Shown here piece after piece: positions 55,937-56,126 of a stretch of DNA of 64,000 nt. The stretch comes from the human T2T-CHM13v2.0 reference genome, Homo sapiens, in NCBI GenBank assembly GCA_009914755.4, contig CP068257.2, positions 33,376,001 to 33,440,000 on the forward strand, given 5' to 3'. How positions within the stretch are numbered: the stretch's first letter is position 1; every line of letters begins with the position of its first letter. Both the position numbers and the translations under genes were made by a program. Under the pieces are notes generated by a model that saw only the letters and a program-made list of their open reading frames with translations, made no database searches and was not told where the DNA came from.

Positions 55937-56035
55937 CACGCTGCGAAACCCTGTGGTTTGCATTCAGTGTGATTCGTCCTGCCTGCTGACCACTATGCTG
56001 GGTTCAGACTTCTGACACTGCCAGGCTACCCAACT

Positions 56036-56050
56036 TGTGGTTCTGTGGTT
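56036..56050. promoter_or_regulatory. Tandem RUNX/CBF binding motifs TGTGGTTcTGTGGTT (ACCACA on the gene strand).
   Basis: Read directly from sequence. They match the two conserved RUNX sites described at the start of the P1 5'UTR, which have been implicated in autoregulation. Confidence 0.6.
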
Positions 56051-56126
56051 GTTTATGAGGCCCAAAGAAGTTTTCACACAACCCAAATTACAAATTTAAC
56101 TGTTCCCCTTTCCACAGCCCATCTCA

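What the first reader, a model, noticed from the sequence alone, without database searches (positions are those of the whole stretch)
55950..56060. Three TGTGGT RUNX motifs (two in tandem) in the P1 5'UTR, plus a fourth in the promoter
TGTGGTTcTGTGGTT at 56036-56050 is a head-to-tail pair of consensus RUNX/CBF sites. TGTGGTT at 55952-55958 adds a third just upstream of the predicted exon 1 donor. TGTGGTT at 56345-56351 lies in the upstream promoter. TGTGGTT at 33707-33713 lies in the +22 kb island. RUNX1 appears to regulate its own P1 promoter through such sites. The density and tandem arrangement are visible directly. This is a compact auto/cross-regulatory module shared among RUNX1, RUNX2 and RUNX3.
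Basis: partly seen in the sequence, partly recalled or inferred. Interest (0 to 1): 0.5.

Follow-up and report, generated by a model that had tools for sequence, protein, structure and literature searches.

The report
Known RUNX1 P1 promoter autoregulatory sites
These are the five RUNX-protein binding sites of the human RUNX1 distal (P1) promoter and first exon, through which RUNX proteins feed back on the gene's own transcription; they are real and ancient, but they have already been mapped, mutated and shown to be occupied in published work.

Summary
TGTGGTT (AACCACA on the gene's sense strand, which is the minus strand) lies at 55952-58, 56036-42, 56044-50, 56345-51 and 33707-13. A fifth promoter-region site at 56675-81 was missed.

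The window is the human RUNX1 P1 region:
- All unmodified primers of Martinez et al. 2016 map with 0 mismatches.
- A published 214-nt human row matches 56150..55937 exactly.
- The exon encoding [19 protein letters not shown] lies just downstream.

The five sites are that paper's R1-R5:
- RUNX1 occupies them by ChIP in Jurkat, HL-60 and HEL cells.
- Mutating the 5'UTR sites R3-R5 raises reporter activity.
- The upstream sites R1 and R2 activate.
- RUNX3 represses this promoter in B cells.

Conservation:
- The tandem pair is present in all eight non-teleost jawed vertebrates checked, and in RUNX2 and RUNX3 P1.
- It is not kept as a pair in fugu and is absent in lamprey.
- The third UTR site is found in tetrapods only.
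- I recovered bird RUNX1 and RUNX2 P1 loci independently. They keep R2-R5 but not R1.

Verdict: a real, functional and already described feature. Interest is low.

The parts
56044..56050 (-). RUNX site R3 (AACCACA on the sense strand), first of the tandem pair at the start of the P1 5'UTR
   Evidence: Exact match. The mutagenic primers for 'Site 3' of PMC4762634 map here with exactly the 2 designed mismatches. Conserved in 8 of 8 non-teleost gnathostome Runx1 rows and in bird RUNX1 and RUNX2 loci.
56036..56042 (-). RUNX site R4, second of the tandem pair (head-to-tail, 1-nt spacer, 8-bp offset)
   Evidence: AACCACAGAACCACAAG is the only stretch shared by RUNX1, RUNX2 and RUNX3 P1.
55952..55958 (-). 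RUNX site R5, 92 nt downstream of R3 and 15 nt upstream of the exon 1 splice donor
   Evidence: The 'Site 5' mutagenic primers map to 55946-55967 with 2 designed mismatches. Present in all 7 tetrapod rows and in the bird locus L006, with 92-nt spacing in 6 of the 7 rows (95 nt in frog) and in L006. Absent in elephant shark and fugu.
56345..56351 (-). RUNX site R2 in the upstream promoter (-301 relative to R3)
   Evidence: The ChIP primer 'RUNX Site 2 forward' covers it (56344-56367). It sits in a block of about 80 nt that is nearly identical between human and bird. Published mutation of sites 1 and 2 lowers P1 activity.
56675..56681 (-).
   Evidence: It lies at the 5' edge of the cloned -591 fragment, whose forward primer maps to 56680-56703. 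Published ChIP enrichment. Not conserved in the bird ortholog.
56060..56150 (-). Conserved P1 core promoter block: E-box GTCACATGAT, CCAAT (56131-56127), TATA-like GTTAAATTTG (56100-56091) and the TSS region. The paper's numbering puts +1 near 56112. An origin near 56073 is my recollection of the RefSeq mRNA start and was not tested.
   Evidence: Nearly invariant from human to elephant shark.
55937..56112 (-). RUNX1 P1 exon 1 (non-coding), ending at the donor GCAGCGTG|GTGAGC
   Evidence: The published 5'UTR alignment ends at 55937. The donor is conserved in bird. The 5' end is uncertain by about 40 nt.
55728..55936 (-). Short intron within the 5'UTR (GT at 55936-35, AG at 55729-28). Martinez et al. 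treat it as contiguous UTR.
   Evidence: Splice signals read, conserved in bird. The splice itself rests on my recollection of the RefSeq mRNA and was not confirmed by a tool.
55611..55727 (-). Exon carrying the end of the 5'UTR and the P1-specific N-terminus (ATG 55668-55666; [19 protein letters not shown]; donor GT 55610-09)
   Evidence: The hnRNA forward primer CGATGGCTTCAGACAGCATA maps to 55651-55670.
33707..33713 (-). RUNX site in the human counterpart of the Runx1 +23 intronic enhancer, next to GATA (TGATAA) and ETS (TTCC) motifs
   Evidence: The '+23 enhancer' ChIP primers of PMC4762634 map to 33738-33757 and 33856-33875.

Best explanation
The segment is the distal (P1) promoter and first non-coding exon of human RUNX1, which is transcribed from the minus strand of the window. 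It carries five consensus RUNX/CBF-beta binding sites (AACCACA), all in the same orientation. Two lie upstream of the start site (R1, R2). Three lie in the DNA that encodes the start of the 5'UTR: the head-to-tail pair R3-R4, and R5 92 nt further on.

RUNX proteins bind these sites as DNA elements. RUNX1 does so itself, and RUNX3 does so in B cells. Occupancy of the upstream sites raises P1 transcription. Occupancy of the sites just downstream of the start site lowers it. The gene therefore senses total RUNX dosage through opposing positive and negative inputs. The tandem pair is inherited from the single ancestral RUNX gene of jawed vertebrates and is kept in the P1 region of all three paralogs, which allows cross-regulation.

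Shown in published experiments: ChIP occupancy, the direction of the mutation effects in reporters, and a fall in P1 primary transcript after RUNX1 knock-down. Shown here: identity of the locus, exact positions, clustering statistics, and conservation in bird RUNX1 and RUNX2. Inferred only: how the downstream sites repress. Candidates are recruitment of a Groucho/TLE co-repressor through the RUNX VWRPY motif, or steric interference close to the start site.
For: Locus identity:
- All unmodified primers of PMC4762634 map with 0 mismatches.
- The mutagenic primers for sites 3 and 5 differ only by the two designed bases, at 56044-50 and 55952-58.
- The published human row matches 56150..55937 exactly.
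- The P1 N-terminal exon translates correctly.

Sites: five AACCACA, all sense, and no other RUNX-type motif within about -800 to +700. The cluster is unique in the window.

Published function:
- ChIP enrichment at R1, R2 and R3-5 in Jurkat and HL-60 cells.
- AACCACA->AcaCACA in R3, in R3-4 and in R3-5 raises reporter activity 2- to 3.8-fold.
- The UTR-less P1 fragment with R1 and R2 is activated by RUNX1 in a dose-dependent way.
- RUNX1 siRNA lowers occupancy and P1 hnRNA.
- An independent laboratory reports ChIP in HEL cells, lower activity when sites 1 and 2 are mutated, and higher activity when sites 3 and 4 are mutated.
- RUNX3 represses RUNX1 P1.

Conservation:
- The tandem pair is in 8 of 8 non-teleost gnathostome Runx1 rows, in RUNX2 and in RUNX3, where only the motif pair itself is shared.
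- R2 to R5 are conserved in an independently recovered bird locus.
Against: - All functional read-outs for the UTR sites are luciferase activities from constructs that transcribe the mutated sequence, so a post-transcriptional contribution is not excluded.
- Deleting the UTR gives about a 20-fold increase in activity over pGL3, against 4.6-fold with it. Mutating all three sites gives only 3.8-fold. Most of the UTR's inhibitory effect is therefore not due to the RUNX sites.
- ChIP-qPCR cannot resolve R3, R4 and R5 individually.
- RUNX1 knock-down lowered P1 hnRNA, so the net loop looks positive in Jurkat cells even though the UTR sites are inhibitory.
- The two laboratories disagree in HeLa cells. 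One reports activation by RUNX1. The other reports that RUNX1B inhibits and RUNX1C activates.
- The P1 promoter alone is reported to lack blood-specific activity in mouse embryos.
- R1 is not conserved in bird, and the pair is not kept in fugu.
Confidence: 0.88

Rival explanations
1. The AACCACA repeats in exon 1 act mainly in the mRNA, as a 5'UTR element affecting translation or stability or as a binding site for an RNA-binding protein. The reporter effects of mutating them would then be post-transcriptional.
For: R3-R5 are transcribed, all in the sense orientation. Every mutant test measured luciferase from constructs containing the UTR. UTR deletion has a much larger effect than the site mutations.
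Against: Exon 1 RNA folds no better than shuffles (z = -0.02). The same motif in the same orientation recurs upstream of the start site (R1, R2), where it cannot be in the mRNA. RUNX1 ChIP enrichment is highest over R3-5 and falls after knock-down, together with the primary transcript. In RUNX3 only the motif pair is conserved, with unrelated flanks, and it is a perfect match to the protein's DNA consensus.
Confidence: 0.07
2. The tandem block is conserved because it is part of the core promoter or start-site architecture, or is bound by another factor. Its match to the RUNX consensus would be incidental.
For: In RUNX1 orthologs R3 and R4 lie inside a nearly invariant block of about 110 nt that includes a TATA-like element and the start-site region. 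Conservation there is not motif-specific.
Against: Between paralogs the conservation narrows to C-AACCACAGAACCACAAG, that is, exactly the two sites. Two-base mutations within the motif change activity, and the region is RUNX1-ChIP positive.
Confidence: 0.04
3. Chance clustering of a short motif in a motif-rich window.
For: TGTGGTT is generally over-represented in this window: 27 occurrences against 12.2 +/- 3.3 in shuffles. It is the commonest same-composition 7-mer apart from (TG)n. With that rate the triple has P of about 0.02.
Against: Four of the five sites are conserved between human and bird. The pair is conserved from human to elephant shark and across three paralogs. All five sites share one orientation.
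Confidence: 0.01

Closest known systems
RUNX1 P1 promoter sites R1-R5 (Martinez et al. 2016, PLoS One, PMC4762634)
   Same: The same DNA. The paper's primers and mutagenic oligonucleotides map onto the window at these coordinates. There are two promoter sites about 330 bp apart and three UTR sites within 170 bp of the start site.
   Different: Nothing material. The paper counts the short intron as contiguous UTR (444 bp) and numbers +1 near 56112.
Tandem RUNX sites of gnathostome Runx1, Runx2 and Runx3 P1 5'UTRs (Nah et al. 2014, PMC3974841 and PMC4236176; autoregulation of RUNX2 P1 attributed there to earlier work)
   Same: The identical AACCACAGAACCACAAG pair at the start of the P1 5'UTR. 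Confirmed here in bird RUNX2 (L001, L007) and in the published RUNX3 rows.
   Different: The third site differs. In RUNX1 it lies at +92, inside exon 1, and is found in tetrapods only. In bird RUNX2 it lies at +130, just inside the intron after the first donor. The aligned RUNX3 stretch shows none.
Runx1 +23 intronic haematopoietic enhancer (Nottingham et al. 2007, as cited in PMC4762634 and PMC4798972)
   Same: Also carries a consensus RUNX site (33707-13) in the same orientation, alongside GATA and ETS motifs. It belongs to the same feedback wiring of the locus, with positive feedback at some elements and negative feedback at others (PMC4798972).
   Different: It is a distal enhancer that confers tissue specificity, with a single RUNX site. 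It is not a promoter-proximal tandem pair.
Lamprey RunxB and RunxC promoters (PMC4236176)
   Same: RunxB has dispersed single RUNX motifs around its P1 and P2 promoters.
   Different: They have no tandem pair, so the tandem module is specific to gnathostomes.

Membership tests
Gnathostome RUNX P1 tandem RUNX-site module | Two consensus RUNX sites (Pu/T-ACC-Pu-CA) head-to-tail with a 1-nt spacer: AACCACAGAACCACA | tested here: met
   Window 56050..56036 on the minus strand.
Gnathostome RUNX P1 tandem RUNX-site module | Located at the beginning of the P1 5'UTR, upstream of the exon encoding the P1-specific MAS(D/N)S N-terminus | tested here: met
   ATG at 55668-66 gives [19 protein letters not shown]. 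By the paper's numbering, derived, the sites lie at about +63 to +77. The bird RUNX1 and RUNX2 loci have the same layout.
Gnathostome RUNX P1 tandem RUNX-site module | Conserved across orthologs and across the three paralogs | tested here: met
   Bird RUNX1 (L003, L006) and bird RUNX2 (L001, L007) were recovered by a metagenome scan. Published rows for 8 species and for RUNX3 were re-parsed. The search pattern required the pair itself, so the independent evidence is the flanks, R2 and R5, and the published alignments.
Gnathostome RUNX P1 tandem RUNX-site module | Occupied by RUNX protein in vivo | not testable with these tools
   Published ChIP-qPCR in Jurkat and HL-60 cells (PMC4762634) and ChIP-PCR in HEL cells (bioRxiv 2024.06.18.599563). 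The amplicon 55916-56075 covers R3-R5.
Gnathostome RUNX P1 tandem RUNX-site module | Mutation of the sites changes promoter output | not testable with these tools
   Published: 2- to 3.8-fold increase when R3, R3-4 or R3-5 are mutated, and an increase for sites 3 and 4 in a second laboratory.
Runx1 +23 enhancer (for the site at 33707-13) | Position about 23 kb downstream of the P1 ATG, with a GATA/ETS/RUNX motif cluster | tested here: met
   The site lies 21.96 kb from the ATG. Published human '+23 enhancer' primers map to 33738-33875. TGATAA, TTCC and AACCACA motifs were read. Cross-species conservation of this element was not tested here, because the bird loci held do not reach it.

The most novel reading that the evidence does not exclude
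The rigid geometry may itself be functional. The two sites are offset by 8 bp immediately downstream of the start site, and the third lies exactly 92 nt away in six of the seven tetrapod rows and in the independently recovered bird locus. Under this reading the arrangement is a RUNX-dosage sensor: two Runt/CBF-beta complexes bind cooperatively or exclusively and act as a promoter-proximal roadblock. Alternatively the sites double as an mRNA element. Either would be more than ordinary independent binding sites. Nothing here tests simultaneous occupancy or separates DNA-level from RNA-level effects.
Probability: 0.1. Interest if true: 0.4.

Novelty: already known. Interest (0 to 1): 0.1.

Why it matters
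RUNX1 dosage is critical in haematopoiesis, familial platelet disorder and leukaemia. The P1 feedback sites are part of how that dosage is set, and of how RUNX3 silences RUNX1 in EBV-infected B cells. This is established knowledge. It also tidies the details: five sites rather than four, which sites are ancient, and which direction each group acts.

Tried and rejected
- RNA structure in exon 1. I folded 55937-56075 on the minus strand and obtained z = -0.02 against shuffles, so I rejected it.
- Chance clustering. I tested uniform and Markov nulls (a first attempt, timed out). On sequence alone chance is only moderately unlikely. Conservation rejects it.
- General T/G-richness as the cause of the motif count. 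I compared all 35 same-composition 7-mers. TGTGGTT ranks second, behind only the (TG)n microsatellite word, so composition is not the explanation.
- The metagenome scan with the 20-mer AACAACCACAGAACCACAAG. Three of the eight hits (L002, L005, L008) are unrelated DNA. RUNX3 was missed because its 5' flank differs (CTC instead of AAC), and no further metagenome scan was allowed.
- Nottingham et al. 2007 on the +23 enhancer could not be read. A targeted literature search added nothing on whether the +23 RUNX motif is required.
- The bird loci held do not extend to the +23 enhancer, so its conservation was not tested.
- No protein-database, structure or RNA-family searches were run. They do not bear on a eukaryotic transcription-factor site cluster.

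Full report
**Observation.** It also contains one more at 56675-56681 that was not listed. The tandem reads TGTGGTTcTGTGGTT.

I scanned with the degenerate RUNX consensus ((R/T)ACCRCA, both strands) from about -800 to +700 around the tandem pair. The scan finds exactly five sites. All are strict AACCACA and all lie on the minus strand, at -631, -301, 0, +8 and +92 relative to the first tandem site.

This is the only 3-in-100-bp cluster and the only 5-in-730-bp cluster in the 64 kb.
- If the window's own 27 sites are placed uniformly, such clusters arise with P of about 0.02 (the triple) and 0.005 (the five).
- In first-order Markov sequences they arose in 1 of 400 and 0 of 400 simulations.
- The motif is also enriched across the whole window: 27 occurrences against 12.2 +/- 3.3 in shuffles.
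- Among the 35 words of the same base composition it ranks second, behind only the (TG)n microsatellite word.

**What the locus is.** The gene runs on the minus strand.
- An ATG at 55668-55666 opens [19 protein letters not shown], followed by a GT donor at 55610-09. This is the N-terminus specific to RUNX1 transcripts from the distal promoter P1.
- All unmodified human primers in Table 1 of Martinez et al. 2016 (PMC4762634) map to the window with no mismatch. The mutagenic primers for 'Site 3' and 'Site 5' map onto 56044-50 and 55952-58 with exactly the two designed substitutions.
- The 214-nt 'Human' row of the Runx1 P1 alignment in Nah et al. 2014 (PMC3974841, Fig. S1) matches 56150..55937 on the minus strand exactly.

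The window is therefore the human RUNX1 P1 region. The paper's -591 end corresponds to 56703, which puts its +1 near 56112. By that numbering the tandem pair lies at about +63 to +77 and the third site at about +155 to +161.

The published alignment of the '5'UTR region' stops at 55937. A GT donor (GCAGCGTG|GTGAGC) begins there, and an AG acceptor follows at 55729-28. Both are conserved in a bird ortholog. The splice itself rests on my recollection of the RefSeq mRNA, and Martinez et al. treat the 444 bp as contiguous UTR.

**Published function.** The five sites are the R1-R5 of Martinez et al..
- R1 and R2 lie in the promoter, R3 to R5 in the 5'UTR.
[quoted passage not shown] - Changing AACCACA to AcaCACA in R3, in R3-4 and in R3-5 raised reporter activity 2- to 3.8-fold.
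- Removing the UTR raised activity much more: about 20-fold over pGL3, against 4.6-fold with the UTR.
- The UTR-less fragment with R1 and R2 was activated by RUNX1 in a dose-dependent way in HeLa cells.
- RUNX1 knock-down lowered both occupancy and the P1 primary transcript.

A second laboratory found the same five sites (bioRxiv 10.1101/2024.06.18.599563). It reported ChIP signal in HEL cells, lower activity after mutating sites 1 and 2, and higher activity after mutating sites 3 and 4.

RUNX3 represses this promoter in EBV-infected B cells (PMC4889917, citing Spender et al. 2005). Schutte et al. 2016 (PMC4798972) note that RUNX1 gives positive feedback at some elements of its locus and negative feedback at others. 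They also note that P1 alone had been shown to lack blood activity in mouse embryos.

**Conservation.** I scanned the metagenome collection for the 20-mer AACAACCACAGAACCACAAG. It returned eight loci:
- One contig nearly identical to the window (L004; 99.5% over 1665 nt).
- Two contigs with a diverged RUNX1 P1 (L003, L006; N-terminus MASNSIFESLPSYQHFLR).
- Two contigs with RUNX2 P1 (L001, L007; MASNSLFSSVTPCQQN).
- Three unrelated chance hits (L002, L005, L008).

L006 is 96.7% identical to the published chicken row, so its host is a bird.

In the human-bird alignment:
- R2 sits in a nearly identical block of about 80 nt.
- R3 and R4 sit in a nearly perfect block running from the TATA-like element into the UTR.
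- R5 is kept at the same 92-nt spacing.
- R1 is not conserved.

The published rows, re-parsed, show the following:
- The pair is present in human, mouse, dog, opossum, platypus, chicken, frog and elephant shark.
- R5 is present in the seven tetrapods only.
- Fugu has neither the pair nor R5, only a single AACCACA.
- Lamprey lacks the pair altogether (PMC4236176).

Between paralogs the shared sequence narrows to the pair itself:
- RUNX1: ...ATAAAC-AACCACAGAACCACAAG-TTGG
- RUNX2: ...ACAAAC-AACCACAGAACCACAAG-TGCG
- RUNX3: ...CCCTC-AACCACAGAACCACAAG-GCCA

This is the strongest sequence-only argument that the motifs, and not the surrounding core promoter, are the conserved unit.

**Mechanism.** RUNX/CBF-beta complexes bind the five DNA sites. 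The upstream sites activate transcription. The sites just downstream of the start site dampen it. P1 output therefore depends on total RUNX dosage and can be cross-regulated by RUNX3.

How the downstream sites repress is inferred and not shown. Possibilities are co-repressor recruitment or steric interference near the start site.

The main caveat is that every test of R3-R5 measured luciferase from transcripts that contain the mutated sequence, so an mRNA-level contribution is not excluded. Several points argue against it:
- Exon 1 RNA shows no unusual folding (z = -0.02).
- The same motif in the same orientation recurs upstream of the start site.
- ChIP enrichment is highest over R3-5.
- The primary transcript falls when RUNX1 is depleted.

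**Other claims in the finding.** The site at 33707-13 lies in the human counterpart of the Runx1 +23 enhancer. The paper's '+23 enhancer' primers map to 33738-33875, and GATA and ETS motifs are adjacent. I could not test its conservation, because the bird loci held do not reach it. I also could not read the original enhancer paper.

**Verdict.** The feature is already known in detail, so interest is low.

- There are five sites, not four.
- Only the tandem pair is shared by RUNX1, RUNX2 and RUNX3.
- The UTR sites inhibit while the upstream sites activate.
- Conservation reaches cartilaginous fish for the pair, tetrapods for the third site, and does not hold in fugu.

Noticed in passing
It has published ChIP enrichment but is not conserved in the bird ortholog (GAACTGTG instead of AACCACAT).
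   Followed up: yes
window 52962-53198 (about 2.5-2.7 kb downstream of the P1 ATG, in the large intron): A conserved non-coding element, 73% identical to bird over 238 nt. It carries three RUNX core hexamers conserved in bird: an inverted pair TGTGGT..ACCACA at 53012-52999 and ACCACA at 52973-52968. It also has a conserved GATA-like CTTTATCAG and a TTCC motif. It may be the 'Runx1+3' element named once in PMC4798972, but that link is from memory and was not verified.
   Followed up: partly
window 60146-60331 (about 4 kb upstream of P1): A second human-bird conserved non-coding block, 74% identical over 192 nt against L006 2077-2263. Its content was not analysed.
   Followed up: no
whole window: TGTGGTT/AACCACA is over-represented across the 64 kb: 27 occurrences against 12.2 +/- 3.3 in dinucleotide shuffles, and against a median of 10 for same-composition 7-mers. 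Of the 27, 17 are in the gene-sense orientation. This fits a locus dense in RUNX-bound elements, but I did not test which sites are conserved.
   Followed up: partly
window 56277-56287, 56204-56209, 56127-56131, 56141-56150: Other promoter motifs conserved between human and bird. They are an AP-1-like TGACTGAGTCA (core TGAGTCA kept), the E-box CAGGTG inside GGGGAGGGCAGGTGGAG (probably the SCL site of Martinez et al., whose primers flank it), a CCAAT box, and the E-box GTCACATGAT (CACGTG in mouse, chicken, frog and shark).
   Followed up: partly
window 55728-55936: A short (about 209 nt) intron inside the 5'UTR, with a T15 run and with donor and acceptor conserved in bird. The published reporter work treats it as part of a 444-bp UTR, so the large effect of 'UTR deletion' also removes an intron and its splice sites.
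   Followed up: partly
L007 about 1108-1114 and L001 about 7627-7633 (bird RUNX2 P1): RUNX2 also has a third AACCACA, 130 nt after the first tandem site and just inside the intron after the first 5'UTR donor (CAGAGTCA|GTAAGTGCTCTCTAACCACAG). The layout resembles RUNX1's R5, but on the other side of the splice donor. I did not resolve whether the two are homologous. The bird RUNX1 locus also has an extra AACCACA at +126, in its short intron.
   Followed up: partly
L001, L003, L004, L006, L007: Contigs in public 'metagenome' assemblies that are vertebrate host DNA. Those from Ga0181612 and Ga0065711 are bird (one contig is 51.7 kb long), and OUNP010019934.1 is human. L004 differs from the window at a few positions over 1665 nt (99.5% identity), including repeat-length differences.
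   Followed up: no
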